From assembly GCA_000004985.1 (NCBI GenBank), contig GG738910.1: 64,000 bases of DNA; one strand, written 5' to 3'. The notes below the pieces were generated by a model. The model ran no database searches. It was not told the DNA's origin and saw only the letters and a list, made by a program, of their open reading frames with translations. The stretch comes from Naegleria gruberi. Its lineage: Eukaryota. This document shows positions 1 to 48,683 of the stretch, piece after piece. Made by a program: the position numbers and the translations under genes. Numbering within the stretch: position 1 is the stretch's first letter; the number at the start of each line of letters is the position of its first letter.

Positions 1-1492
1 CAAGTTGTTTTACAATCTTTGGGTAGACCTTTGAGTTTCTAGAGTGATTTCCACATAAAACTCCAAATGGCATATCTGATATAACAACATCAATGCTTTC
101 ATTTCTAAAAGGTAAGAATCTAGAATCACAATTTAAAATATGAATATTTCTGTTTTTGCTGCAATTATCCTTCATAGCACTCACTTCATCTAGATTGAAA
201 TCAATATTATAAAGTTGAACTTTAGGATCATTATCAGTGAAGAGATAATTAAGTGAGAGCGAAAGAGTACCACTTCCTGCAAATGGATCAACAAAAGTAA
301 CTAATTGTGATTGTTGGAATAATTTGTCGCGTAAAATTGAATTTTCCATCAATAAAGTTTTCCAAAGCATGTAGCTTGTTTGAGGTTTCAAGGTAGATTT
401 TCCGTAGGTTAATCTAATATCTTGTTTAGTGTATGAATAAATCAAATCACATGAATTCAATACATTCAATTCGTCCTCACTGAGATTACTATCAATAACT
501 TGATTGTTCAAAGAAAAATGTCTAATTTTCAATTCTTCTAAAGCATGTAATGGAGGGGACAATAGCATTCCTATAAACACTCTATCAATATCCAAATAAA
601 TTAAAATGTCAAGGTCATACTTTTTCAGGTTAACCTTCATGTCCTTACAAATTGTTTCTCCAATTCCGTATCCATACTCGGCGGCCATATCCATTGATTT
701 GTAGTCATGCTTCAAAATACTTGTTTGTTTTCTTACACCAGTAGCCCTAAAGTTGGTATCCTTGGAATAAAGGTTTTGTTTTTCAAACTTTTTGCAATAT
801 AATTTTTCGAATAGTTCAAAAGATTGTTTCCATGCTTGAGTATCTTGCTCTCTTTTTGGTATAGTTTCTGCAAATATTGGCATTGCAGTCTCTTTATCAA
901 AAGGTATATCAGGAACAATGCAAATAAATGAATACACAAAATCAATACTAGGAATAGCATTTAAATGGCAGACTAAATAAACTAGATTTTCCATAAATAA
1001 ATTATTATCACTTCCTTTAGAAGAAACATTAAATATTAATAATCCATTTCTAGAATATAAAAATTCAATTTCAAATAAATTAGAAAAATTAATAAATGTC
1101 ACTTTGTGACTCTCACTCAAAGTTTTTAGCTCGTTTGGTACCGAGTTTTCCACCTTTTTCATAAATTTACCAGCAATAGTTGTTGGATAATCGTGGACCC
1201 TAATTTTCGGATTTAATTTTTCATACCAATTAAATTGCAAATTTGAGTCAAAGAGTGAAAGAATTTCATCCTTCACAATTTGTTCAAAGCCATGTGTATG
1301 ACTCACAAGAAAAGTGTGTTCTTGTTTCTGTTGTTCATTTGAATGGCATGCAGACCTTGTCAAAATAGGATGATATACCTCTCCGCAATGTCCCATAGCA
1401 TCTGGTGGAAGTGGTTGTTTTTCCTTTTTCTTCTTCTTTTGTGATGAAGGGAATTTATTTTGTGTGGTATTGTTGCCTTCTTGATTTACCAT
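1..1492 (-). CDS. SAM-dependent (N-methyl)transferase with N-terminal THUMP-like region, copy A; ATG at 1492..1490, open reading frame continues past window start (3' ~190 nt missing)
   Basis: Continuous minus-strand ORF from ATG (MVNQEGNNTTQNKFPSSQKKKKKEKQP...). Motif I DPFAGSGT and motif IV DMPFG are seen in the paralogous copy at 44.5-44.9 kb. It is ~97% nt-identical to 42975-44885 but lacks that copy's 465-bp insert, frameshift and stop. It is not in the ORF track because it has no stop inside the window. Confidence 0.55.
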   Translation of the reverse strand, partial: MVNQEGNNTTQNKFPSSQKKKKKEKQPLPPDAMGHCGEVYHPILTRSACHSNEQQKQEHTFLVSHTHGFEQIVKDEILSLFDSNLQFNWYEKLNPKIRVHDYPTTIAGKFMKKVENSVPNELKTLSESHKVTFINFSNLFEIEFLYSRNGLLIFNVSSKGSDNNLFMENLVYLVCHLNAIPSIDFVYSFICIVPDIPFDKETAMPIFAETIPKREQDTQAWKQSFELFEKLYCKKFEKQNLYSKDTNFRATGVRKQTSILKHDYKSMDMAAEYGYGIGETICKDMKVNLKKYDLDILIYLDIDRVFIGMLLSPPLHALEELKIRHFSLNNQVIDSNLSEDELNVLNSCDLIYSYTKQDIRLTYGKSTLKPQTSYMLWKTLLMENSILRDKLFQQSQLVTFVDPFAGSGTLSLSLNYLFTDNDPKVQLYNIDFNLDEVSAMKDNCSKNRNIHILNCDSRFLPFRNESIDVVISDMPFGVLCGNHSRNSKVYPKIVKQL

Positions 1493-16441: not shown

Positions 16442-18199
16442 ATGAATCAACATTCATCTCATCTTTCATTCTTATTAAACGACTTGAGGGTCGCTGTGCT
16501 TAGTTTCCAGCCAAAATTTTTGTGCAAAAAAATGAACCTGCAATCATTTTCACTTTCCCCTACGCCAAAATTACGTTTTTTAACCAAAGCAGCTGTGATA
16601 GTATTTGTGATGGTGGCCTTTTTGTTGTGGAGAACTAAAAAAGACAGGTTCTCTAATAATATTCTTATTAAGGAAGATGAGACCAATCAAGCAAAACAAA
16701 CAATAGAACAACAAGTTGCAAAACTAACAACGGAACAAAAACTCAAGAAACAAGCACAACATTCTGACGATACAAAAATTTATCACCAAATTGCTGATCT
16801 TTTAACAAGACCAAGTGGTGTTGGTTCTTACGACTGGTATAAGCAACAACTTGAAAAATACAATTCAATCGGTAATACAACATTTAAGGATTCATATGTT
16901 TCAAGAATAGGATTTAAAAATGAAGAAATAACTTCGCCTAATTGGTTTCATTACTTCAGAACTTACAAGGTCAAAGAAGTATGCTCAAAACAGCATTCAT
17001 GTGAGATACTTCCATTCTCTTCAGCTCAAAGCGAACTCTCAAGAGGAGTAAAATTGGATGCAATCATCTATCATGATAAGTACAGTGAAGGAATTCTCGT
17101 GTCTGGACCTAAAGACATACCAGAACAAGTTAGTGTCAAAAAATTCCAAGAAACAATCAAATCATATGGTTTTTTAAATTCTGTTGAAGAAATATCAAAC
17201 AAGATTGATTCAGAGCTCGGGGAAACTCTTTGGAGAATGTTAAGAAGATTAACATTTTACATGAATGGGGAATCTGTTGTTAGAAACATTATTTCTGGAT
17301 ATTTGCAAACAAAAGATGATCCAGCATCAATGGAAAGATTTTCAAGCACTTCAATAGATGTTTCAGTTTGTTTTTTTAGAAGTTGTACTTTATTCAACAA
17401 TTATCTTTATTACCCAATTAATTTGCTATCGCCAAAGTTTGCCAAAAACACACAAACAAAACCTGGTTTGTGTGCTTTTATTTCAAATTGTGTAGCAGAA
17501 TCTCATGCAACTCAAAGATTACAAATCTTGGAACAACTTTCAACATACCTTCCTGTAAGACAATATGGAAAATGTGGTAGAAATGCATATGAAACTAACG
17601 GAGGTAAGATGTTCGAACTTGAACATAATTGCAAGATTTACTTTGCCATGGAAAACTCAGTAGTTCCAGATTATATTACTGAAAAATTATATGAAGGCTT
17701 CAAATCTATGGAGAATGGCGGAAGATTATTGATGGTTTACAAAGGTCCACCAAATATTGCTGATTTCAAATATCCAAAATCTGCATTCATCAATGTGGAT
17801 GATTTCTCCTCAATTGATGAGTTGGGACAATATTTGAAAAAGTTGAACGAAAATGAAGATGAATTCAATAAGAGATTTGCTGAACTAGAAAGAGACAGAG
17901 TCCAAATCAATCATGCAATTAAGATGATGAGACCAAGTCTTTCAAATTTCATCCCTTGCAGAATGTGTAAAATTGTTGGACAAACTAAATTAGCTAGATA
18001 CCTATTGTTCAAAATCGGATTACAAGTACAAAAGAAAAAACTCAACTATAGGGAATGGGATGAATTCAAGAAGCAATTCGATTATATAGGGCCAGAGAGG
18101 ATGGCAATCCTTGATTCTATTTATCTCAGAGCTTATGCAAATCAATTCCACTCAGAAAATATAAACACTGATATCAATGACGATGAAGTTTGGAAATAA
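16442..18199 (+). CDS. GT10 alpha-1,3/4-fucosyltransferase paralog A (type II membrane protein, long stem)
   Basis: Real ATG. TM segment AAVIVFVMVAFLLW near the N-terminus. Seen: C-terminal GT10 motif CKIYFAMENSVVPDYITEKLYEGF (the FucT 'alpha1,3 motif'), upstream CAFISNC and C-terminal CRMC cysteines. Confidence 0.85.
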   Translation: MNQHSSHLSFLLNDLRVAVLSFQPKFLCKKMNLQSFSLSPTPKLRFLTKAAVIVFVMVAFLLWRTKKDRFSNNILIKEDETNQAKQTIEQQVAKLTTEQKLKKQAQHSDDTKIYHQIADLLTRPSGVGSYDWYKQQLEKYNSIGNTTFKDSYVSRIGFKNEEITSPNWFHYFRTYKVKEVCSKQHSCEILPFSSAQSELSRGVKLDAIIYHDKYSEGILVSGPKDIPEQVSVKKFQETIKSYGFLNSVEEISNKIDSELGETLWRMLRRLTFYMNGESVVRNIISGYLQTKDDPASMERFSSTSIDVSVCFFRSCTLFNNYLYYPINLLSPKFAKNTQTKPGLCAFISNCVAESHATQRLQILEQLSTYLPVRQYGKCGRNAYETNGGKMFELEHNCKIYFAMENSVVPDYITEKLYEGFKSMENGGRLLMVYKGPPNIADFKYPKSAFINVDDFSSIDELGQYLKKLNENEDEFNKRFAELERDRVQINHAIKMMRPSLSNFIPCRMCKIVGQTKLARYLLFKIGLQVQKKKLNYREWDEFKKQFDYIGPERMAILDSIYLRAYANQFHSENINTDINDDEVWK

Positions 18200-20630: not shown

Positions 20631-22109
20631 ATGACCATCAAAATGAGGAAGGCAATCATATCAATTCTTTGCTATTTATTGTCTTCATTTCTGTTGTATT
20701 ATTTGTTTTCTGTGAGGAGAGAGACTGCGCCTGTTAAAACCACGTTACTTAAACCATTAGATTCTACTCCAATCTTCGAATTAACAAACCCTTCCCATAT
20801 GGAAAATTCTTTTATGTGGTATTTAAGGCAAATTAAGGACCAGAAAATAGGACATGAACCTCTCTTAGAACCAATTAATTTTGCTTTTGATAGCATAAAA
20901 CTTAATGATAAGAAATGGTTTCACTTTTTTTATGATGAAGATAACAACACAAAGCAATGTAAAGTTAAAGGGTGTAAACTATTTTCCATTGATGCATCAA
21001 TAATCTCTAAAAGATTAGATGCAATAATCTACAATGTTTATATGGCCAATGGTCCAGAAATATCGAAAAAATTGTTCGAAAAATCGACAGGTAATGGAAA
21101 GAATGCCTTGCTTTCTTTAAAGAAAGTGTACAAGCAATTGAATTCAACTGCTATGGATAAGGAATTTGCAAACACTATATGGAAAGAAATGGCTCCTTTG
21201 AAAATTGTTTTTAGTTATGAACAATATACTGTAGGGGTTGTCAATCAACATATTGATTATATAGATATAAGTGGATGCAGCCATAGAAATTGTTCTATCT
21301 TTTGTGGATATAATTTTAACACAATCCAACTTGATGAAAAGGTGATAGGGACTAAAAAGAGCACGCATAATTCATTGTGTTCATTTATTTCAAATTGTGA
21401 TGTAATTGATGCAGCCCGAAGAATTCAAGATGTACTAAAGTTATCCACTTTTGTTAATGGAAGACATTATGGACAATGTGGAAAGAATGTTGCTGAAGAT
21501 TCCAGAGGAAAATTATATGAATTAGAGCATAATTGTAAATTTTATACTGCTTTTGAGAATACTAGAAAGGAAGATTATGTAACTGAGAAGTTTTTTGAAG
21601 GAATTAAGGCAATAGAGAATGGAGCAAAGGTATTGATGATTTATGATGGGGCTACAAATGTTGAAAGTTTCGGATTTCCAAAAGATGTTTTCATTAATAG
21701 AAACGACTTTAGCTCGGTGGATGAATTGGGAAAATATTTAAAGTCACTGAGTGAAGATGAATTATTATTCAACCAAACTTTTCTGAGGGCTTTTTCAAAA
21801 CAGAATATACCAATCATCGAAAAAGTCTTTAATTATCATTATTTGAAAAGAACCGACACAACAGTATGTAGAATGTGTACATCTATTGCAGAGGTGAAAC
21901 TCGCTAGGTACCTTCTTTACAAATGTGGATTGTTTGAGAAGGCTACATGGGGTGAATTTCGAGAGAGAATGAAAGTATTGCTTAGTAATGAGTCAAATAG
22001 ACTTTCTATTCTTGACTCAATGTTTGAAATTGCTTATGGAAGAGTGTTCAAGAAAAATTTGTCTGAAACAAATTGGAATGACTATAGCTATAACTATAAC
22101 ACACCTTAA
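20631..22109 (+). CDS. GT10 alpha-1,3/4-fucosyltransferase paralog B (type II membrane protein)
   Basis: Real ATG. TM IISILCYLLSSFLLYYLF. GT10 motif CKFYTAFENTRKEDYVTEKFFEGI, CSFISNC, C-terminal CRMC. Roughly 45% identical to paralog A across the catalytic domain. Confidence 0.85.
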   Translation: MTIKMRKAIISILCYLLSSFLLYYLFSVRRETAPVKTTLLKPLDSTPIFELTNPSHMENSFMWYLRQIKDQKIGHEPLLEPINFAFDSIKLNDKKWFHFFYDEDNNTKQCKVKGCKLFSIDASIISKRLDAIIYNVYMANGPEISKKLFEKSTGNGKNALLSLKKVYKQLNSTAMDKEFANTIWKEMAPLKIVFSYEQYTVGVVNQHIDYIDISGCSHRNCSIFCGYNFNTIQLDEKVIGTKKSTHNSLCSFISNCDVIDAARRIQDVLKLSTFVNGRHYGQCGKNVAEDSRGKLYELEHNCKFYTAFENTRKEDYVTEKFFEGIKAIENGAKVLMIYDGATNVESFGFPKDVFINRNDFSSVDELGKYLKSLSEDELLFNQTFLRAFSKQNIPIIEKVFNYHYLKRTDTTVCRMCTSIAEVKLARYLLYKCGLFEKATWGEFRERMKVLLSNESNRLSILDSMFEIAYGRVFKKNLSETNWNDYSYNYNTP

Positions 22110-38441: not shown

Positions 38442-40907
38442 ATGTCCACAAGACTAGTGGATTACATTGCAGTTGTTGGCTCTCCCTATGACCCCAGGGA
38501 AATGATGCACACCAAGAGGTTGTCGTCAACAATAACAAAATACACTTCAACAGTGGGAAGGGATCAAACAATTGATAGTGAAGAAGATGAAGAACAGAGA
38601 AGTAATTTATCTGAAGTTGAATCTGAAACTTTGTCTGTTGGGGAAAATTCATCTAATATAATTGATGATAAAGTTTCTGTTGGAGTTGTAGTCGAGGAGG
38701 TAGGAATGAATAGTTATGATGCAGTGTTTGATAATAGTGCGGAAATGTTTATGGACAAACTTAGGAAACCAATTGTATTGGACAGATATCCAAGAGAGGA
38801 CTATCCTTCAGCTCCACTATCACCTGAAATACCTCTCTTTTGTTTTCCGAATGGAGAGATTGGAATTCGTATTGATGAATGTACTTTACCAATGTATTAT
38901 ACTTTTGTTTTAACTGCTGCTGATGGTAACAAAACCTATGGAGCTTGCCTAAATATTTGGGAGGAATATCATTTGGAAGATGAATTATTGAATACTGAAA
39001 AGAAGGATAATGATGACGGAATGATTTCCATAACTTTTGATCCAATCAAGACTGAACGAGAGACTTCTACAATTTATATGTCAAAAAGCATTGTACTAAT
39101 TTCTCATTATCCATTCTATAATTTATTCAAATTCTTTCTGACTCAAATGTATAGAATTAGTATTACACCATCTAAAATACCAATTGAAAGATTTATTTCA
39201 AATTTCATTTTTGAGGTACCTCTACCTTGTCAGGGAAAAGTACAGGTCCACTACAGCATTGGTGATAAGGAGATTTTTATAACAAGACCTCCACCTAATG
39301 AGTTACCGATGGCTGAAGTTGATTTTGAACTCTTATTTTGTACATTAAGCATTGAGAACATTATGATTTTATTTGATTTAGTATTACAAGAAAAAAAAAT
39401 TTTATTTACTTCAAGTCATGTAGCTTTATTGACTCAAATTTCTGAGATTATTTGCCATTTAGTGTTTCCTTTCAAGTGGCACCATATTTATATTCCATTA
39501 TTACCTGCCAAATGTGCAGAATTTTTATTTGCTCCAGTTCCCTTTATGATGGGATTGGCAAAGGATTTTGTAAATAATATCGAGATACCATCAGATGTTT
39601 TCCAAATAGATTTGGATAACAATCAAATTGTTTGTTCAAAGCAGCAATCAATTCCAAATCTTCCTGAAAAACAAAAGATTAGATTACAAAACACTTTGAA
39701 TAGCTTGGTAAGGACAAAAGTTGGATCCCAAAGAGCTATTGATAAGTTGCACTTTGTAGATCTAGCTTATGCTATGGCTCCAATTACAGAAGAGATTGAC
39801 CCAAAAACAGGAGAGGCATTTCCATTCCCAACACGAGAAGTAAGAATGGCTTTCACACGATTTTTCGTTTCTCTCTTTTTCAAATATAAGAATTTTTTCA
39901 GAGAAGCTCAGGATTCTGAGCTAGAGAGCATGTTAGATTTAGATCATTTCTTTAATAAGAATGCATTCACACACCAACTTCCAGAACAGGCTAGATCATT
40001 TATGGAAATATTTCTGCATACTCAAACATTTGAAAGGTTTTTATTAGATAGATTGGAAAAAGTAAATCAGAATGAAGTTCAATATTTCGAAGAATTAATG
40101 ATACAGAAAGATAATGAATCAAAGTTCAAGTTCAGAAAGCAACCAACCCCATTTCTCTCCAAAAATTTTGCCATCTCAAGAACGTTGATGGCTCTTTCAC
40201 CAGATAACTCCAATCTTACTTCAAGTACTGAACCATATATTTATTTATATTTTCCAACTAAGTTAGATCATACGCTATTCACTAAAAGAGAATATACTCA
40301 ACTATTAGTTTCAGAATCTGACGTGGTTTCTAATAATGAAATTAACTTATCATGGAAATCTTGTATTGCTGCTCTCTCATCCCTTTCTACAAATCAGTAC
40401 TCCAACAAAACAGATAATAATACAAAGATGGCATCAGCAAATATAATACTAGATGAAAATAGAAATGAGAACCTTTTTGATAGATTCTCATTCCAGACGG
40501 ATTCAAAATGTTATCATTGTGAGCATATTTGTAAGGAATCTGAAATAAGGTCTGGTTGGAGTTCAAGTAATTCGCAGAGTTATACAACAACATGTACACA
40601 TTGCTCCAAACAATTCGTTCCTTACTTTTCAGTTTACTTTAAACTTCCTTCAGTCACACAAGAATTACACCAGTTAACCTCTGTTGAATATCTATCACCT
40701 CTAGTGATAAGAAAAGAAATTGAAAATTTGATATCACATGATGTCAAAGCAGATTCTGCCCTGTGTTGGCAGCACCCAGTACTTTTTTGGAATCTTGTGG
40801 TACATTTCAGATCACTTCCTCTTTCGTTTATATTTCCATGTATTGATTGGAATGCTATTCAATCTCATCTTGTTACATCTCTATCTCAAAATTCTACTGT
40901 TAATTGA
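38442..40907 (+). CDS. tripartite DENN (uDENN-DENN-dDENN) domain protein, putative Rab GEF
   Basis: FCFPNGEIGI...YTFVLT (uDENN), FISNFIFEVPLPCQGKVQVHY...ELLFCTLSIENIMILFDLVLQEKKILF (DENN core), dDENN-like C-terminal part; Cys-rich tail. Confidence 0.8.
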   Translation: MSTRLVDYIAVVGSPYDPREMMHTKRLSSTITKYTSTVGRDQTIDSEEDEEQRSNLSEVESETLSVGENSSNIIDDKVSVGVVVEEVGMNSYDAVFDNSAEMFMDKLRKPIVLDRYPREDYPSAPLSPEIPLFCFPNGEIGIRIDECTLPMYYTFVLTAADGNKTYGACLNIWEEYHLEDELLNTEKKDNDDGMISITFDPIKTERETSTIYMSKSIVLISHYPFYNLFKFFLTQMYRISITPSKIPIERFISNFIFEVPLPCQGKVQVHYSIGDKEIFITRPPPNELPMAEVDFELLFCTLSIENIMILFDLVLQEKKILFTSSHVALLTQISEIICHLVFPFKWHHIYIPLLPAKCAEFLFAPVPFMMGLAKDFVNNIEIPSDVFQIDLDNNQIVCSKQQSIPNLPEKQKIRLQNTLNSLVRTKVGSQRAIDKLHFVDLAYAMAPITEEIDPKTGEAFPFPTREVRMAFTRFFVSLFFKYKNFFREAQDSELESMLDLDHFFNKNAFTHQLPEQARSFMEIFLHTQTFERFLLDRLEKVNQNEVQYFEELMIQKDNESKFKFRKQPTPFLSKNFAISRTLMALSPDNSNLTSSTEPYIYLYFPTKLDHTLFTKREYTQLLVSESDVVSNNEINLSWKSCIAALSSLSTNQYSNKTDNNTKMASANIILDENRNENLFDRFSFQTDSKCYHCEHICKESEIRSGWSSSNSQSYTTTCTHCSKQFVPYFSVYFKLPSVTQELHQLTSVEYLSPLVIRKEIENLISHDVKADSALCWQHPVLFWNLVVHFRSLPLSFIFPCIDWNAIQSHLVTSLSQNSTVN

Positions 40908-41192: not shown

Positions 41193-42860
41193 ATGTCTCC
41201 ATACCCTACAACAGGCTTTGGATTTCATAGTATAGGGAAATTTTTGAAACAAGGAGATGATAAATCCTTATTACCTCATTTTCAACAGGCCGAAAACACC
41301 TCAAATATATTTATCTTAAGAAGATATAGATGGTTTTTGGTTGGTGTTTTCGTGTGTTTCTTTATGTGTTTTGTACGGTGGAATACTAATTCTGAGGATG
41401 AAATCAATAATAATACTGTGATCATAACCTCTGATCATAAAATTGGAAACAAGATTGAATCAATGCAAACTCATTCTACACTTGTGGTGAGTGAACAAGG
41501 CATTAGACTTGAACCAGAGGTGAAGCAGGTACCTATGGTTAAGGAGGATCCAAAACACACCTTCACCGGAATTTTATTACATTTTAAAAGAAGAAATGGT
41601 ATTAAGAAAATCCTTTCAATGATGATTAAATACCCTTTTATTTCTCAAGTAATTGTGTGGAATAACAATCCTGACGTTAGCATAACTCACCAAAATCTGA
41701 TAGAGGACTATCTTTCTGATGGAGAAAAATCAAAAACACTCGAAAAGTACAAGGAAATGGTTTTTATTCACAATCATAATGAAAATATTAAGGACAAAGC
41801 AAAATATTTAGCTTGTGAATTGGCAAATACTACAGCTTGTTTCTACTGTGATGATGATTGGGATATAACAAGATACGCCAACGCTCTACTAGCAGACTTC
41901 TACAATGAGCCTAGCGTTATGCATAGTGTAACAGAACCATACACGTATTACACAAACCTTGTTTGGTCCTTTTATGATTCAAATATTAATCTTCACACAG
42001 CTTTTGCTTGGATTGGTTGTGGGTCTATGTTCTTGAAGTCACTTGCTGTTAACCACCTCCAAAAAGTTGACAAGTTTTTGGAATCGAATCCAAAATTGAA
42101 AAATCTTGTTCCTCTGAGTGATATATTTTTCTCAATATGGCAAAATAATGCTCCTTCACAGATTGTTGCTAACATTGCAGAAATAAGTGTAGAGAAGGAA
42201 AATGTGGCATTTTCTAGTCAGGGTGGGTTTTTACAATTACAACATGAATCAAGTATGATGGCTATTAAGATTCTTCATGATGAACTCACATACAACTCTT
42301 TCTTTACAATATTCCCAAAGAAAGAGATTGAAAATCCATTTCCTCTCTTCCTTAAATCACCTTCTTCAAAGGATTCATTCTTATTTTATTCAGACTTGTT
42401 TCCGTTCTTATTGAAAAATGTTTCCTTTGACATTACAAACCATGTTCATGCAAAAAGAAGCACTAGAGATAACCTTCCTCAAGGTGCTGATGTTGATTTT
42501 TTTTACAACAACAACCCAACAAGGGCGGTTGATTCTGATCCATCATCTTGTTGGCAATCAAACAGAAACGTTGGCATGGACAGTTTTTTTGGAGTGGATC
42601 TGTATTCTGTTGTAACAGATATCGCTATTGAAATTATTTACTCACACACAAAAGATTTTCATGCAACCCTCAAAACAAGACACTCCATTGACAGGAAAAA
42701 TTGGGTTGACACAAGTGCAGCCAGCTATGAATCGAATAACTTTTCTCGCCACTCATTCAAAGACTCAGTAAGATATATCGAGTTCTTCACTCAAACTGGC
42801 TCAAGAAACAAATTTGGTATTTGTGATTTTAAAGTTTTCAAGAATGGAACCTCTATCTAA
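41193..42860 (+). CDS. type II membrane glycosyltransferase, GT64/EXTL-like catalytic region fused to C-terminal F5/8 type C (discoidin) domain
   Basis: TM FLVGVFVCFFMCFV. Catalytic region FTGILLHF..ISQVIVWNNNP...ACFYCDDDWD...VW parallels the GT64 pattern (FT.VI...QIIVLWN...LDEDT...VW). C-terminal AVDSDPSSCWQS...GVDL...RYIEFF...FKVFKNG fits the discoidin fold. Confidence 0.55.
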   Translation: MSPYPTTGFGFHSIGKFLKQGDDKSLLPHFQQAENTSNIFILRRYRWFLVGVFVCFFMCFVRWNTNSEDEINNNTVIITSDHKIGNKIESMQTHSTLVVSEQGIRLEPEVKQVPMVKEDPKHTFTGILLHFKRRNGIKKILSMMIKYPFISQVIVWNNNPDVSITHQNLIEDYLSDGEKSKTLEKYKEMVFIHNHNENIKDKAKYLACELANTTACFYCDDDWDITRYANALLADFYNEPSVMHSVTEPYTYYTNLVWSFYDSNINLHTAFAWIGCGSMFLKSLAVNHLQKVDKFLESNPKLKNLVPLSDIFFSIWQNNAPSQIVANIAEISVEKENVAFSSQGGFLQLQHESSMMAIKILHDELTYNSFFTIFPKKEIENPFPLFLKSPSSKDSFLFYSDLFPFLLKNVSFDITNHVHAKRSTRDNLPQGADVDFFYNNNPTRAVDSDPSSCWQSNRNVGMDSFFGVDLYSVVTDIAIEIIYSHTKDFHATLKTRHSIDRKNWVDTSAASYESNNFSRHSFKDSVRYIEFFTQTGSRNKFGICDFKVFKNGTSI

Positions 42861-42935: not shown

Positions 42936-45073
42936 ATGGTGCTAGAGGAATTAACAGATGCCGAAAGACCTTCATCACAAAAGAAGAAAAAGGAAAACAA
43001 CCACTTCCACCCGATGCTATGGGCCATTCGGGAGAAGTCTATCATCCTATTTTGACAAGGTCTGCAGGCTATTCAAATGAACAACAGAAACAGGAACACA
43101 CTTTTCTTGTGAGTCATACACATGGCTTTGAACAAATTGTGAAGGATGAAATTCTTTTACTTTTTGACTCATTAAATTTGATGTAATTTAATTGGTATGA
43201 AAAATTAAATCCGAAAATTAGGGTCCACGATTATCCAACAACTATTGCTGGTAAATTTATGAAAAAGGTGGAAAACTCGGTACCAAACTACCTAAAAACT
43301 TTGAGTGAGAGTCACAAAGTGACATTTGTTAATTTTTCTAATTTATTTGAAATTGAATTTTTATATTCTAGAAATGGATTATTAATATTTAATGTTTCTT
43401 CTAAAGGAAGTGATAATAATTTATTTATGGAAAATCTAGTTTATTTAGTCTGCCATTTAAATGCTATTCCTAGTATTGATTTTGTGTATTCATTTATTTG
43501 CATTGTTCCTGATATACCCTTTGATAAAGAGACTACAATGCCAATATTTGCAGAAACTATACCAAAAAGAGAACAAGATACTCAAACATAGAAACAATCC
43601 TTTGAACTATTCGAAAAATTATATTGCAAAAAGTTTGAAAAACAAAATCTTTATTCCAAGGATACCAACTTTAGGGCTACTGGTGTAAGAAAACAAACAA
43701 GTATTTTGAAGCATGACTACAAATCAATGGATATGGCCGCTGAGTATGGATATGGAATTGGGGAAACAATTTGCAAGGACATGAAGGTTAACCTGAAAAA
43801 GTATGACCTTGACATGTTAATTTATTTGGATATTGATAGAGTGTTTATAGGAATGCTATTGTCCCCTCCATTACATGCTTTAGAAGAATTGAAAATTAGT
43901 TCAGCATGTTCAGGACATGGTGGTTGCATCTCACCAAATAATTGTTCATGTGTCTCTGGATATTATGGAAGTGATTGTAGCCAATTTGATTGTTATGGAA
44001 CTGCCTCCACAAATACATCAACATGTACTAATCACGGTAGTTGTATATCCCCAAATAACTGTTCCTGCTTATCAGACTATTATGGAAAAGAGTGTACTCA
44101 ATATGATTGTTTTGGAACTATTTCAACAAATGGTTCAGTATGTTCTGGACACGGTACCTGTCTCTCACCAAATAACTGCTCATGCTTAGCTGGATATTAT
44201 GGAAATGATTGTAGTGAATTTGATTGTTACGAAACTGCCTCCACAAATGCATCAGCATGTTCTGGACATGGTGGTTGCATCTCACCAAATAATTGTTCTT
44301 GTTTAGATGGATACTACGGAAATGTTTGTAGTCAATTTGATTGTTATGGAACTGCCTCAACAAGACATTTTTCTTTGAATAATCAAGTTATTGATAGAAA
44401 TCTCAGTGAGGACGAATTGAATGAATTGAATTCATGTGATTTGATTTATTCATACACTAAACAAGATATTAGATTAACCTTCGGAAAATCTATCTTGAAA
44501 CCTCAAACAAGTTACATGCTTTGGAAAACTTTACTGATGGAAAATTCAATTTTACGAGACAAATTATTCCAACAATCACAATTAGTTACTTTTGTTGATC
44601 CATTTGCAGGAAGTGGTACTCTTTCACTCTCACTTAATTATCTCTTCACTGATAATGATCCTAAAGTTCAACTTTATAATATTGATTTCAATCTAGATGA
44701 AGTGAGTGTTATGAAGGATAATTGCAGCAAAAACAGAAATAATCATATTTTAAATTGTGATTCTAGATTCTTACCTTTTAGAAATGAAAGCATTGATGTT
44801 GTTATATCAGATATGCCATTTGGAGTTTTATGTGAAAATCACTCTAGAAACTCAAAGGTCTACCCAAAGATTGTAAAACAACTCGAAAGAATTGTTAAGC
44901 CTGATGGAATTGTAATGCTGTTGACAATTGAACTTACCTTACTGGAATCTCAACTGAATGCCAGAAATCGGTGGACATTCACAACACAAAAAGTAACACT
45001 TGGAGATTTAGGTAAGGAATCCAAGCAACCATTTACATTGGCAAGAAGAAACCTCCACAAAATAAATTTATGA
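42936..45073 (+). pseudogene. methyltransferase copy B (inverted paralog of the 1..1492 gene), disrupted by a 1-nt deletion (~42995) and a TGG>TAG nonsense (43589..43591) and carrying a 465-bp in-frame insertion; a C-terminal ORF 43706..45073 remains open
   Basis: Direct nucleotide comparison with the reverse complement of 1..1492. About 97% identity from ~42975 onward. Copy A reads through where copy B has stops. DPFAGSGT/DMPFG methyltransferase motifs are intact in the open C-terminal ORF. Confidence 0.6.
43898..44362 (+). repeat. 465-bp array of ~4 tandem 117-bp (39-aa) EGF-like/tenascin-type cysteine repeats inserted in frame into methyltransferase copy B
   Basis: Repeat unit (S/T)ACSGHGGCISPNNCSC(L/V)xGYYGxDCSQFDCYGTASTN(T/A)S, iterated about 4 times. 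First and fourth units are near-identical at the nt level. The sequence is absent from copy A, which goes straight from ...gaaaatt to agacattttt. Confidence 0.75.
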
Positions 45074-45303: not shown

Positions 45304-46399
45304 ATGATTTTCTTAGAAGCTGGAAACAAAATTATTCAAGAAATCCTTCTCAAGCAATTTGATGCTTCGTACGTATTTGATGTTTTTAGCTTGATGTTTT
45401 ACTAACAACACCACAACATTTAATCTTTAATCTATTCTTTATACTGTGTAAATTAATATAACAACAACATACCATGATTCAATTTATCATCGCTCACATA
45501 TTAACAACAAAAACAGAACAAGACAACCAAGCGTCCATGTTAACGGAGGTGATTTTGATGGTACTAAATTTGTTATTCAATCTGATGCTGGTAATAAGAA
45601 CCTTCTCACCTTGTCCATCTATGTTCATGGTGAAAAGGAATTTAATCAATATGGAGGTATTGAATTGGTCAAGAAAACTTTACCAGGATTGGATGTTAAA
45701 GCACCAGGTTTAACAGTCGATGATCAAAAACATACTTTCACAGTTACTATTGATGTTGAAAAGGAAGAAAAGAATAAGGACAAGTGGTTAAAGGAATTGC
45801 CACGTGTCAAAACTACATATATGAGTGCTGTCTTTTTGCAAGCCATGGATAAACACGCAAAGGGAGAACAATTCGAACCAATCAAAGTTCCATACAGACC
45901 AGATGAAAATATTTACATTATTTCTTATAAGGGCAAGTCTTTGGTTGTTGTTTATAGTATTTTGTTCAGAGATCCTGATGATGTCGTTTTTGCCAATGGT
46001 TTCTTGTGTGAATTCAAGGATGCCAAGAAGGATCGTGCTCTCAATGCTGCTCCAAATATGAACTTTTCACAAGGTCAATTGGCTGGTGAATTGGTTGACG
46101 TAAAGAGTGTTACTGAACCAAAGGACGAAAGAACTTTGAAGAAGGAAGGTTGGGGCTTTGTTTCTATTGGTTTGTTGGATAATCATACCAAGGCTGATAA
46201 GCAATTGAATACTGCTGAATTATTGCTTGGTTTCCGTTCATATTTGCACTACCATTTGAAGTGTATGAAGGCTTACATGCACATTCGTATGAGAGAATCT
46301 GTTGAAAAGTTAATGTTGAACTTGAATGCTGCTAAGGATTTGAGCGGTAAGAAGACTGAAAAGAAGACCATGTCTGGTAGAACTTTCAAACAACAATAA
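45304..46399 (+). CDS. arpc2: Arp2/3 complex subunit 2 (ARPC2/p34-Arc); join(45304..45368,45517..46399), 148-nt intron GTACGT..TACTAAC..CAG
   Basis: Exon 1 MIFLEAGNKIIQEILLKQFDAS matches the ARPC2 N-terminus ([23 protein letters not shown]). Exon 2 ...DFDGTKFVIQS...LSIYVHGEKEF...GFRSYLHYHLKCMKAYMHIRMR aligns with the conserved core and the RxYLHYHIKCSKAY block. The first AG after the TACTAAC branch point is the acceptor. Confidence 0.9.
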
Positions 46400-47145: not shown

Positions 47146-48683
47146 ATGAAAGAAAAAATGCAAAAGAATCAATTGATTATCACGTTGGTTGTCTTATTGA
47201 GTGTGGTCGCTTGTACTGTCTATGGTTTCTCAGCTAATCCATGCACATTCTGTCAAACAAGTTTTGATATGGTTGCTACAGATAAGAGTAAGTATGATAT
47301 TTCTTTTTGAATGGTCATGAACTCGTTGCATGAATAATCCATTCAATCCTCAACCGATTAATCCAACTCCAGTGAAGCAATTAGTTCCTCCAGTTGCTCC
47401 ACAAAACGCAAGTGAAACTGCCATCTTTTCTGATAGTAACGGAAATGCCACAACTAATAGTTCTTCGATCTTGAATGGCACCTTGGTAACTTCACACTCA
47501 ACTCAACTCATAGTCTTCATATTAATGGAAGCATTGAACACGCCAACGGTTCTATTACAGTTGGTAATTTGACCTTTGAAGGTGATTTCCATGCCAGTGG
47601 AATTATTGCCATGATTAATGACTCTTTGATTGTTGATGGTTCATCTTTAATCAATGGTTCAATTGATCACGGATTGATTCAAGTAAATGGTAGTGTTGCT
47701 TCTAATGGTTCCTTAATGATTTCCATCTCAACTTGGTTCTCTAATGGGTCTCTCTTAATTAATGGATCGTTCGATACTGATGAAGGAAATGCTTTTGAAT
47801 TGAATGGTACTTTGGGTCATAGTGGTGGTTTCGTCTATTCAAACCAGTCTTGGAACACTAATGGTTCCTTGACCATTCAAGGTGATTTGATTCTTCCTTC
47901 CATGGACGAATTCAGTGGTACTCTTCAAGTTAATGGTACTGTTAATTCCTCAATCAGTGGTGATTTGAGCATCATCGGTTCCATGCTTTTAGATGGTTCT
48001 TTCAATGGAAATGAAACTGATTTCAACATGAACGGTATTTTGACACACAACGGTTTGTTCTTCCAAGATAATGAAACTGTTCACATTGCTGGTTCATTGG
48101 TTTTTGAAGGTAACATGTCTCCCATCCAACAACTCACTTAATGGAACTGCTGTTATCGATGGTACCATGAAATCCTCAGATGGTCAATTGTATATTAATG
48201 GTTCAATGATTATCAGTGGTACATTCTTGAGTAATGAAAATCTTGAATTGAGTGGTTATTTGGCTAATAACGGTTCATTCTTAATTGATAACTCCTCCAT
48301 GACAAGTAATGGTTCTCGAAATGACTGGTACCATTTCATTGCCATGCTCAACCTTAATTGATGGTAATTTGACTGTCAATGGTAACTTGAACTCAACAGT
48401 TGGAAGTATGTTAACTATCAATGGAACTACCCATGTTAATGGTAACTTGACATTGAGCCATGCCTTACTCATCACTGGTAACTTGACAATTCACGGAACT
48501 GTTCATTTGAATAACACAAATGTTGCAATCATTGTTCAAGGGGGCGATTTCACATCTGTTGGTGGTATTGTTGCTAATAACACTGCTGATGGTGCTTTGA
48601 GAGCTGACAATGTTTTAACTTTCATGAATATTACTGATATGACTTTCACTAGTATCAAGGTGAAGAGTACAATGAAGTAATTG
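47146..48683 (+). pseudogene. secreted Asn/Gly/Ser-rich beta-helix-like repeat protein gene, interrupted by at least three frame changes (possible pseudogene or sequence errors)
   Basis: Signal peptide MKEKMQKNQLIITLVVLLSVVACTVYG, then possible intron GTAAGT (47288) to AG (47372). The same repeat family (..NGSLxIxGxL.., dense N-x-S/T sequons) then continues through four consecutive track ORFs (47330, 47569, 48071, 48309) that each use a different frame. The switches fall at a CTCAA microsatellite, a CCC run and near TCTCGA. Confidence 0.45.

What the first reader, a model, noticed from the sequence alone, without database searches (positions are those of the whole stretch)
43898..44362. In-frame insertion of four tandem 39-aa EGF/tenascin-like cysteine repeats
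Exactly 465 bp (155 codons) are inserted between K-I and R-H-F of the methyltransferase ORF. They consist of ~4 units of xCSGHGGCISPNNCSCxxGYYGxDCSQFDCYGTASTNxS (six Cys per unit, EGF-like spacing). Units 1 and 4 are nearly identical in nucleotides, which indicates recent unequal crossing-over. An extracellular-type module inside a cytosolic methyltransferase gene suggests exon/module shuffling or minisatellite capture.
Basis: seen in the sequence. Interest (0 to 1): 0.55.

Follow-up and report, generated by a model that had tools for sequence, protein, structure and literature searches.

The report
EGF-repeat fragment inserted into decaying methyltransferase paralog
A 465-bp piece of a Naegleria surface-protein gene, coding four EGF-like repeats, was pasted in frame into a duplicated RNA-methyltransferase gene that is now a pseudogene, so it is a real but ordinary mutational scar, not a new kind of protein.

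Summary
Copy B (window 42966-45073, +) carries exactly 465 bp that are absent from its inverted paralog, copy A (2-1492, -). The block is four 117-bp units (4x117-3), with four EGF_2 matches (E 1.5e-23) and 24 Cys. The window is Naegleria gruberi: A is XP_002670961 (intact) and B is XP_002670926, a model that starts at an internal Met. Copy A and three Naegleria orthologs lack the block, so it is a derived insertion after I323, between the THUMP and methyltransferase domains.

B is decaying: it has two in-frame stops (TAA 43184-86, TAG 43589-91), frameshifts near both ends, and G>E in a conserved motif. Polarised amino-acid changes are 9 in B against 3 in A. The units differ by dS 0.36-1.03 with dN/dS 0.14-0.43, while A and B differ by dS 0.078, so the units diverged in a functional donor gene. 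Units 1 and 4 are 87-89% identical, which does not indicate recent unequal crossing-over. The unit belongs to giant heterolobosean NHL+EGF proteins (up to 7087 aa), but the exact donor was not found (best 54.5%). The junctions share only a 2-nt AG, with no inverted ends and no poly-A. The most likely origin is fragment capture or templated repair at a DNA break.

The parts
43898..44362 (+). The 465-bp insert in codon phase (155 codons, SSACSGHGG...CYGTAST). Because of the shared AG it can equally be written 43900-44364.
   Evidence: Absent from copy A. TRF period 117 x 4.0. Pfam EGF_2 x4, E 1.5e-23. No stops in this frame and 24 Cys.
43898..44014 (+). Unit 1 (39 aa)
   Evidence: HMM of the units, 76.5 bits. 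87% nt identity to unit 4 and 73% to unit 2.
44015..44131 (+). Unit 2 (39 aa), the most divergent unit
   Evidence: dS to unit 1 is 1.03.
44132..44248 (+). Unit 3 (39 aa)
44249..44362 (+). Unit 4 (38 aa, one codon short of a full unit)
   Evidence: Insert length is 4x117-3.
43898..43899 (+). Left copy of the AG dinucleotide shared by both junctions (microhomology or 2-nt duplication)
   Evidence: Alignment of B with A.
44363..44364 (+). Right copy of the AG dinucleotide
   Evidence: Alignment of B with A.
42966..45073 (+). Copy B: degenerate paralog of the THUMP + UPF0020 methyltransferase gene. The annotated model XP_002670926 / NAEGRDRAFT_74071 covers only 43727-45073.
   Evidence: the translation of 43727-45070 equals P0018.
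2..1492 (-). Copy A: intact paralog (first 497 codons of XP_002670961 / NAEGRDRAFT_74053). It runs off the window start. The empty insertion site is at 523|522.
   Evidence: P0017 starts with this translation.
43184..43186 (+). In-frame TAA in copy B, next to a 6-bp indel. Copy A has CAA here.
43589..43591 (+). In-frame TAG in copy B. Copy A and all three orthologs have W (TGG in A).
42986..42996 (+). A-rich run where B is 4 nt shorter than A. This puts the only upstream ATG (42937) out of frame.
44834..44836 (+). GAA (E) in B where A, three orthologs and the Trm14/TrmN structures have G (motif DMPFGvLCG).
45014..45022 (+). Site of an inferred 1-nt deletion. B reads GKESKQPFTLARRN, whereas A and the orthologs read GKGIQATIYICKKK.
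   Evidence: Protein comparison. Copy A's DNA here lies outside the window.

Best explanation
A 465-bp fragment was copied from one of Naegleria gruberi's genes for giant secreted or membrane proteins built of tandem 39-aa EGF-like units. It was inserted into copy B of a duplicated THUMP-domain RNA methyltransferase gene, at the THUMP/methyltransferase domain boundary (after I323 in copy A numbering).

The four units had already diverged from each other in the donor gene, so the block arrived as one piece and did not expand in place. The junctions share only 2 nt (AG). There are no inverted ends, no poly-A and no longer target-site duplication. The most likely route is therefore repair of a double-strand break, either by end-joining capture of a stray DNA fragment or by microhomology-primed copying from the donor. 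This step is inferred, not shown.

The block has no function of its own. It lacks a signal peptide context and is cut inside an EGF loop. Copy B is now a pseudogene, with two nonsense codons, two frameshifts and damaged conserved residues. The reading frame through the block is still open because the event is recent. It may also be open because in-frame events were the only ones tolerated while B was still in use. The reference annotation hides all this by calling a 448-aa 'EGF + methyltransferase' protein from an internal Met.
For: Shown:
- Exact 465-bp presence/absence between paralogs that are 96-97.7% identical.
- Copy A and three orthologs lack the block, with no gap at the site.
- The block is EGF_2 x4.
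- It matches 1994 proteins in an exhaustive HMMER search. The top hits are giant N. gruberi, N. fowleri and Acrasis kona proteins with up to 29 whole-block matches and strict 39-aa periodicity. Their other domains are NHL/teneurin-NHL and NPCBM, and a C-terminal hydrophobic stretch is visible in the printed sequence of P0170.
- Unit-unit dS is 0.36-1.03 with dN/dS 0.14-0.43. A-B dS is 0.078.
- B-specific lesions are TAA, TAG, a 4-nt deficit, a C-terminal frameshift and G>E in a residue conserved as far as Trm14/TrmN.
- Polarised amino-acid substitutions are 9 derived in B against 3 in A.
- The share of nonsense changes in B fits the neutral expectation of about 5%.
- No inverted repeat joins the two ends of the insert.
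- No other unit occurs in the 64-kb window.
Against: - The donor was not found. The best match to the whole block is 54.5% (N. gruberi NAEGRDRAFT_63708) and the best single unit is 74%. A donor of the expected age (dS at most about 0.08) should be more than 90% identical.
- The donor search was incomplete. The exhaustive library holds only representatives of 50%-identity clusters and lists 150 hits. The word-index searches failed their positive control, because they did not return P0018 itself. No N. gruberi genome DNA was reachable.
- The A-B dN/dS of 0.20 is lower than expected if B had been neutral since the duplication. B was therefore constrained for part of its history, and the order of insertion and inactivation is unknown.
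- The chance that a random fragment lands in the EGF frame and keeps the downstream frame is about 1 in 18. This hints at selection, or at both junctions falling in the same unit phase.
Confidence: 0.7

Rival explanations
1. Working chimeric gene. The 448-aa ORF from the internal Met (43727) is expressed and makes a new partial-THUMP / EGF / methyltransferase protein, so this is domain shuffling caught in use.
For: The ORF is open for 455 codons and is annotated as a gene. The A-B dN/dS of 0.20 shows B was constrained for part of its history. The in-frame, sense-orientation insertion is about a 1 in 18 event by chance.
Against: Upstream there are two nonsense codons and a frameshift, so the THUMP domain (233-308 in A) would be truncated, since the Met corresponds to residue 267 of A. 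G>E falls in an invariant motif, and the C-terminal frameshift removes the conserved ATIYICKKK tail. The model's N-terminus shows no hydrophobic signal-like stretch in the printed sequence, so the 24 Cys would sit in the cytosol. The block also starts and ends inside an EGF loop. An open frame is expected anyway at 2.8% divergence.
Confidence: 0.08
2. Assembly or cloning chimera. The EGF block was joined into copy B by a misassembled or chimeric Sanger clone and is not present in the organism.
For: Copy B is a repeat of copy A, and the insert is itself tandemly repetitive. Both are classic trouble spots for assembly. No reads were available to check this.
Against: The junctions are clean and lie at a single point in an otherwise colinear alignment, with homology resuming exactly on the other side. 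A chimera normally switches to foreign sequence and does not return. No 100%-identical source was seen among N. gruberi proteins, although that search was incomplete.
Confidence: 0.07
3. Nascent intron. Written as A|GTTCAG...CAACAAG|A, the block is bounded by GT...AG, and its removal would restore copy A's sequence exactly, so it could be spliced out as a newly gained intron.
For: The GT...AG reading follows directly from the sequence. Intron gain through insertions that use a duplicated AG|GT is known from introner elements (my knowledge, not tested here).
Against: Given the AG microhomology, only one further base (T) is needed, so the chance is about 1 in 3-4. GTTCAG departs from the GTRAGT-type 5' site (my knowledge). 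In the one putative intron inspected in this window (ARPC2), the best candidate 5' site reads GTACGT with a TACTAAC downstream, although its boundaries were not defined. There is no ACTAAC in the block. The reading frame of the block is intact and EGF-coding. The upstream stops make splicing irrelevant to function.
Confidence: 0.04
4. In-place minisatellite growth. A single captured unit expanded to four by unequal crossing-over inside copy B.
For: The length is 4x117-3, which is what one 114-bp unit plus three full units would give. Units 1 and 4 are the most similar pair.
Against: Units differ by 13-27% in nucleotides and dS 0.36-1.03, which is 5-13 times the A-B dS of 0.078, and with dN/dS 0.14-0.43 they were selected as protein. 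That much divergence cannot have arisen inside B after the duplication.
Confidence: 0.03
5. Ancestral segment precisely deleted from copy A.
For: A presence/absence difference alone cannot be polarised.
Against: Three orthologs (N. lovaniensis, N. fowleri and an ENA heterolobosean) lack it and align without a gap across the site.
Confidence: 0.01

Closest known systems
Tenascin/teneurin-type EGF-like repeats (Pfam EGF_2 PF07974, EGF_Teneurin PF23106), as found in the giant NHL+EGF proteins of Heterolobosea (e.g. N. gruberi NAEGRDRAFT_63708, _82303, _70916, _53247, _71475)
   Same: Six-Cys unit with CSGHGxC...NxCxC..GYYGxxC, strict 39-aa period and an N-x-S linker. The block aligns end to end many times in these proteins.
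   Different: The setting is a cytosolic-enzyme reading frame with no signal peptide, NHL domain or membrane anchor. There are only four units, and the block is cut inside a loop. Identity to any known member is at most 54.5% for the block and at most 74% for a unit, so the actual donor is unknown.
Filler-DNA or templated insertions at repaired double-strand breaks (end-joining capture, microhomology-mediated template switching)
   Same: A few hundred bp of unrelated genomic sequence at a single point, 2-nt junction microhomology, and no transposon or retroposon hallmarks.
   Different: The repair pathway was not observed and the donor locus is unidentified. The near-integral number of repeat units (4x117-3) is not a usual feature. 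It may reflect both junctions using the same short motif of the unit, which is inference only.
THUMP-domain SAM methyltransferases (archaeal/bacterial Trm14/TrmN; eukaryotic THUMPD2/3 class; Pfam UPF0020 PF01170 + THUMP PF02926)
   Same: Copy A has a borderline THUMP match (233-308; 20.5 bits, 0.1 below the 20.6-bit cut-off) and UPF0020 (399-537), with the DPFAGSGT and DMPFG motifs. Its PDB relatives are Trm14/TrmN.
   Different: Copy B carries stops, frameshifts, a G>E change and the 155-aa insert between the two domains. No family member seen here has EGF units.
Introner-like intron gain
   Same: The insert can formally be written as GT...AG, and its removal restores the paralog sequence.
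   Different: There is no repeated element family, no splice-site consensus and no branch-site motif, and the content is coding.

Membership tests
EGF-like domain (Pfam EGF_2 / teneurin-type EGF) | Profile match above the curated cut-off | tested here: met
   EGF_2 83.3 bits against 22.1, four stretches. EGF_Teneurin 51.0 against 24.3. EGF_PEAR1L 69.2 against 37.5.
EGF-like domain (Pfam EGF_2 / teneurin-type EGF) | Six cysteines per unit with C-x-C and GY/FxGxxC spacing | tested here: met
   24 Cys in 155 aa. The pattern is visible in all four units.
EGF-like domain (Pfam EGF_2 / teneurin-type EGF) | Secretory or extracellular context that allows disulfide formation | tested here: not met
   The host frame is a THUMP methyltransferase. 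The N-terminus of the model (MDMAAEYGYG...) shows no hydrophobic signal-like stretch in the printed sequence, and no signal-peptide predictor was run. Disulfides themselves cannot be tested here.
Heterolobosean giant 39-aa EGF-repeat proteins (donor class) | Same 39-aa period and unit consensus | tested here: met
   P0035 prints in perfect 39-aa register. There are 17-29 whole-block matches per protein.
Heterolobosean giant 39-aa EGF-repeat proteins (donor class) | A specific donor at least 90% identical to the block | tested here: inconclusive
   Best match 54.5% for the block and 74% for a unit. Metagenomes gave 52%. The searches were incomplete (searches failed the positive control), and no genome DNA was available.
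THUMP/UPF0020 RNA methyltransferase | UPF0020 methyltransferase domain match | tested here: met
   PF01170 scores 48.8 bits (B) and 51.6 bits (A) against a cut-off of 22.3.
THUMP/UPF0020 RNA methyltransferase | Intact reading frame and conserved catalytic-region residues in copy B | tested here: not met
   TAA 43184-86, TAG 43589-91, a 5' 4-nt deficit, a C-terminal frameshift and G>E in DMPFGvLCG.
DNA transposon / retroposed copy | Terminal inverted repeats, a target-site duplication longer than 2 nt, or a poly-A tail | tested here: not met
   No inverted repeat pairs the two ends. Only AG is duplicated, and the 3' end reads ...CCTCAACA.
Minisatellite expanded in place | Units no more diverged than the age of the host locus allows | tested here: not met
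   Unit dS 0.36-1.03 against host paralog dS 0.078.
Spliceosomal intron | GT...AG borders | tested here: met
   A|GTTCAG...CAACAAG|A. Removal of the block gives copy A's sequence.
Spliceosomal intron | Actual removal from RNA, and consensus 5' and branch sites | not testable with these tools
   No RNA data. GTTCAG and the absence of ACTAAC argue against it.

The most novel reading that the evidence does not exclude
The block entered copy B while B was still a working paralog. A-B dN/dS of 0.20 shows a period of constraint. This would make it a caught-in-the-act case of intron-independent domain accretion in an intron-poor protist. It would also suggest that the 117-bp EGF units of Naegleria's giant surface-protein genes are unusually prone to being copied in frame into unrelated genes, with both junctions using the same short motif of the unit, which would explain the length of 4x117-3.
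Probability: 0.1. Interest if true: 0.45.

Novelty: new member of a known kind. Interest (0 to 1): 0.22.

Why it matters
This matters mainly as a correction. The N. gruberi reference protein XP_002670926 (D2VYC5), which databases show as an 'EGF + methyltransferase' architecture, is the open remnant of a pseudogene that carries a captured repeat fragment. It should not be counted as a real domain combination in studies of domain shuffling or of EGF origins. It is also a clean, datable example of ectopic insertion of coding repeat DNA in a heterolobosean. The host paralogs are at dS 0.078 and the empty site is preserved 42 kb away. If the donor can be located, the example would be useful for studying how break repair moves sequence between genes.

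Tried and rejected
1. Donor search with the word-index protein search gave at best 51% with the whole block and nothing with units 2-3. Both runs failed to return P0018, which contains the query, so they are uninformative.
2. An exhaustive HMMER search identified the family but no donor.
3. The metagenome scan returned three loci at 39-52%.
4. Exact-protein look-ups for the DENN neighbour, P0017 and P0018 found no contig, so no N. gruberi DNA beyond the window could be read.
5. An HMM of the unit against the six-frame translation of the window found no other copy.
6. A scan for an intron consensus in the window was uninformative, with one pattern hit and too few introns.
7. The literature search found no paper describing this locus or the Naegleria EGF giants.
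8. Rejected readings: deletion in copy A, in-place expansion, and transposon or retrocopy.
9. NAEGRDRAFT_53247, a 4502-aa EGF giant on the same 243,952-bp scaffold, was considered as a nearby donor. It is only about 52% identical.

Full report
**What is there.** The window is AT-rich (33.9% GC) and comes from Naegleria gruberi. The translation of 43727-45070 is identical to XP_002670926.1 / NAEGRDRAFT_74071 (P0018, 448 aa). The minus-strand translation of 1492-2 is identical to the first 497 residues of XP_002670961.1 / NAEGRDRAFT_74053 (P0017, 563 aa). Both lie on one 243,952-bp scaffold. These are inverted paralogs about 42 kb apart. Copy A is at 2-1492 (-) and copy B at 42966-45073 (+). They are 96.0-97.7% identical in DNA, with a sharp 5' limit of homology at B 42966 / A 1453.

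**The observation.** B 42969-43899 aligns to A 1450-522, and B 44363-44883 aligns to A 523-3. Exactly 465 bp are therefore extra in B, and the dinucleotide AG is present at both junctions. TRF reports period 117, 4.0 copies, 76% matches and score 548. The 155 codons give four EGF_2 matches (83.3 bits, E 1.5e-23), plus EGF_Teneurin and EGF_PEAR1L, with 24 cysteines. Only the EGF frame is free of stops. They are 87-89% identical.

**Direction of the change.** Orthologs from N. lovaniensis (P0019), N. fowleri (P0020) and an ENA heterolobosean (P0021) have no EGF domain. Together with copy A they align without a gap across the site (...EELKI|RHFS / ...EYGL|RHFS / ...SAGL|RYFQ). The block is therefore a derived insertion in B, placed after I323 of copy A. 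That is 15 residues beyond the Pfam THUMP match (233-308) and just before a linker of variable length that leads into the UPF0020 methyltransferase domain. The host family is the THUMP methyltransferase class, and its solved relatives are Trm14 and TrmN.

**State of the recipient.** Copy A is open from its ATG to the window edge. Copy B carries the following lesions:
- an in-frame TAA at 43184-86, next to a 6-bp indel
- an in-frame TAG at 43589-91, where A has TGG and all orthologs have W
- a 4-nt deficit in an A-run near 42986-96, which puts the only upstream ATG out of frame
- GAA for GGA at 44834-36, in DMPFGvLCG, a glycine conserved as far as Trm14/TrmN
- a shifted C-terminus (GKESKQPFTLARRN instead of GKGIQATIYICKKK), which implies a 1-nt deletion near 45017

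At positions where at least two of the three orthologs match one copy and none matches the other, nine amino-acid changes are derived in B and three in A. The two nonsense changes fit the roughly 5% nonsense share expected for random substitutions in this sequence. B is therefore a pseudogene. The reference model starts at an internal Met, and this hides the decay.

Pairwise A-B values are dS 0.078, dN 0.016 and dN/dS 0.20. That dN/dS is lower than expected if B had been neutral since the duplication. B was evidently constrained for part of its history, and the order of insertion and inactivation cannot be told.

**Origin of the block.** The four units differ from one another by 13-27% in nucleotides, with dS 0.36-1.03 and dN/dS 0.14-0.43. 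That is 5-13 times the synonymous distance between the host paralogs, and it carries the mark of selection on the protein. The units therefore diverged inside a functional EGF-repeat gene, and the block arrived as one piece. In-place expansion and recent unequal crossing-over are rejected.

An exhaustive HMMER search found 1994 matching proteins. The top hits are giants of up to 7087 aa, with up to 29 end-to-end matches of the whole block. The named examples are N. gruberi NAEGRDRAFT_63708, _82303, _70916, _53247 and _71475, N. fowleri FDP41_005437 and an Acrasis kona protein. P0035 prints in perfect 39-aa register with the consensus xVCSGxGxCxSPNNCxCxxGYYGxxCxxFxCxGxxxNxS. P0170 ends in a hydrophobic stretch that looks like a membrane anchor. 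Shorter relatives combine the unit with NHL/teneurin-NHL or NPCBM domains, and none of those sampled has a cytosolic enzyme domain. The donor class is therefore clear.

The donor itself was not found. The best identity is 54.5% for the block and 74% for a single unit, and 52% in metagenomes. No other unit occurs in the window. This negative result is weak. The exhaustive library holds only 50%-identity cluster representatives. The word-index searches did not return even P0018. No N. gruberi DNA outside the window could be read.

**Mechanism.** The junctions share only AG. No inverted repeat joins the ends. There is no poly-A and no longer duplication. This excludes the usual mobile-element routes. 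It fits repair of a double-strand break, either by end-joining capture of a fragment or by microhomology-primed copying. That step is inferred.

The length of 4x117-3 means both junctions fall at nearly the same phase of the unit, in the ...ACA AAT xxx TCA... linker. The pre-insertion site AAAATTAGACAT loosely resembles that linker (AAAT...ACAT). This could explain the near-integral unit number, but it is speculation until a donor is found.

By the canonical EGF cysteine pattern (established knowledge: C1-C3, C2-C4 and C5-C6 disulfides, with C4-x-C5-x8-C6), the domain boundary lies between ...GxxC and SQFD-C. The block therefore begins after C1 of its first EGF and ends after C1 of a fifth. 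It is a random cut and not a module excised at its borders.

**Rivals.**
- A working chimeric gene is unlikely. The THUMP domain would be truncated, conserved residues and the C-terminal tail are damaged, and no signal-like N-terminus is visible.
- An assembly chimera cannot be excluded without reads. It is unlikely because homology resumes exactly after the block.
- The block can formally be written as GT...AG, and its removal restores copy A. However, GTTCAG is a poor 5' site, no branch motif is present, and given the AG only one further base is needed for this pattern.
- Deletion in copy A is refuted by the orthologs.

**Verdict.** The insertion is real and was correctly located. Its nature, a fragment of a heterolobosean EGF-array gene, is established, and its exact donor is not. 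The host is a decaying duplicate. This is a new example of a known kind of event. Its value lies mainly in correcting a misleading database architecture, and it offers a tidy case of ectopic sequence capture. Interest is low to moderate.

Noticed in passing
window 2-1492 (-) and 42966-45073 (+): There is an inverted segmental duplication of the THUMP methyltransferase gene about 42 kb apart, with a sharp 5' homology limit at B 42966 / A 1453 (inside codon 15 of copy A). The duplicate therefore lacks A's start codon and promoter. The 3' limit lies beyond the window start.
   Followed up: partly
window 43727-45073: The reference model NAEGRDRAFT_74071 (XP_002670926, D2VYC5) starts at an internal Met downstream of two in-frame stops. 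Databases therefore list a spurious EGF + UPF0020 architecture.
   Followed up: yes
proteins P0022-P0170 (not in the window); NAEGRDRAFT_53247 is on the same 243,952-bp scaffold: A large heterolobosean family of giant proteins (up to 7087 aa) is built of strictly 39-aa EGF-like units, often with NHL/teneurin-like NHL domains. It is present in N. gruberi, N. fowleri, Acrasis kona and many metagenomes. No paper describing it turned up in two literature searches.
   Followed up: partly
tool behaviour: The word-index protein search returned neither P0018 (which contains the query at 100%) nor any N. gruberi EGF giant, and it found only 322 and 1 candidates. It appears to be blind to this Cys-rich repeat, so negative results from it should not be trusted for such queries.
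   Followed up: partly
window 17468-17838 and 21375-21742: A direct repeat of about 370 bp at 65.6% identity, possibly two diverged paralogous genes or domains.
   Followed up: no
window 45305-46399: This is an Arp2/3 subunit ARPC2 (P34-Arc) gene. A short first exon (MIFLEAGNKIIQEILLKQFDAS) is followed by a putative intron. The best candidate 5' site reads GTACGT and there is a TACTAAC motif downstream. The main ORF resumes before 45611.
   Followed up: partly
window 38442-40907 and 41193-42860: The neighbours of copy B are an intronless 821-aa uDENN-DENN-dDENN protein and a 555-aa protein with a weak F5/8 type C match. Copy B begins only about 105 bp after the stop of the latter.
   Followed up: no
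window 47330-48141: ORFs rich in N-G-S / N-x-S/T motifs (for example 47569-48141...INGSIDHGLIQVNGSVASNGSL...) suggest a repetitive glycoprotein-like gene.
   Followed up: no
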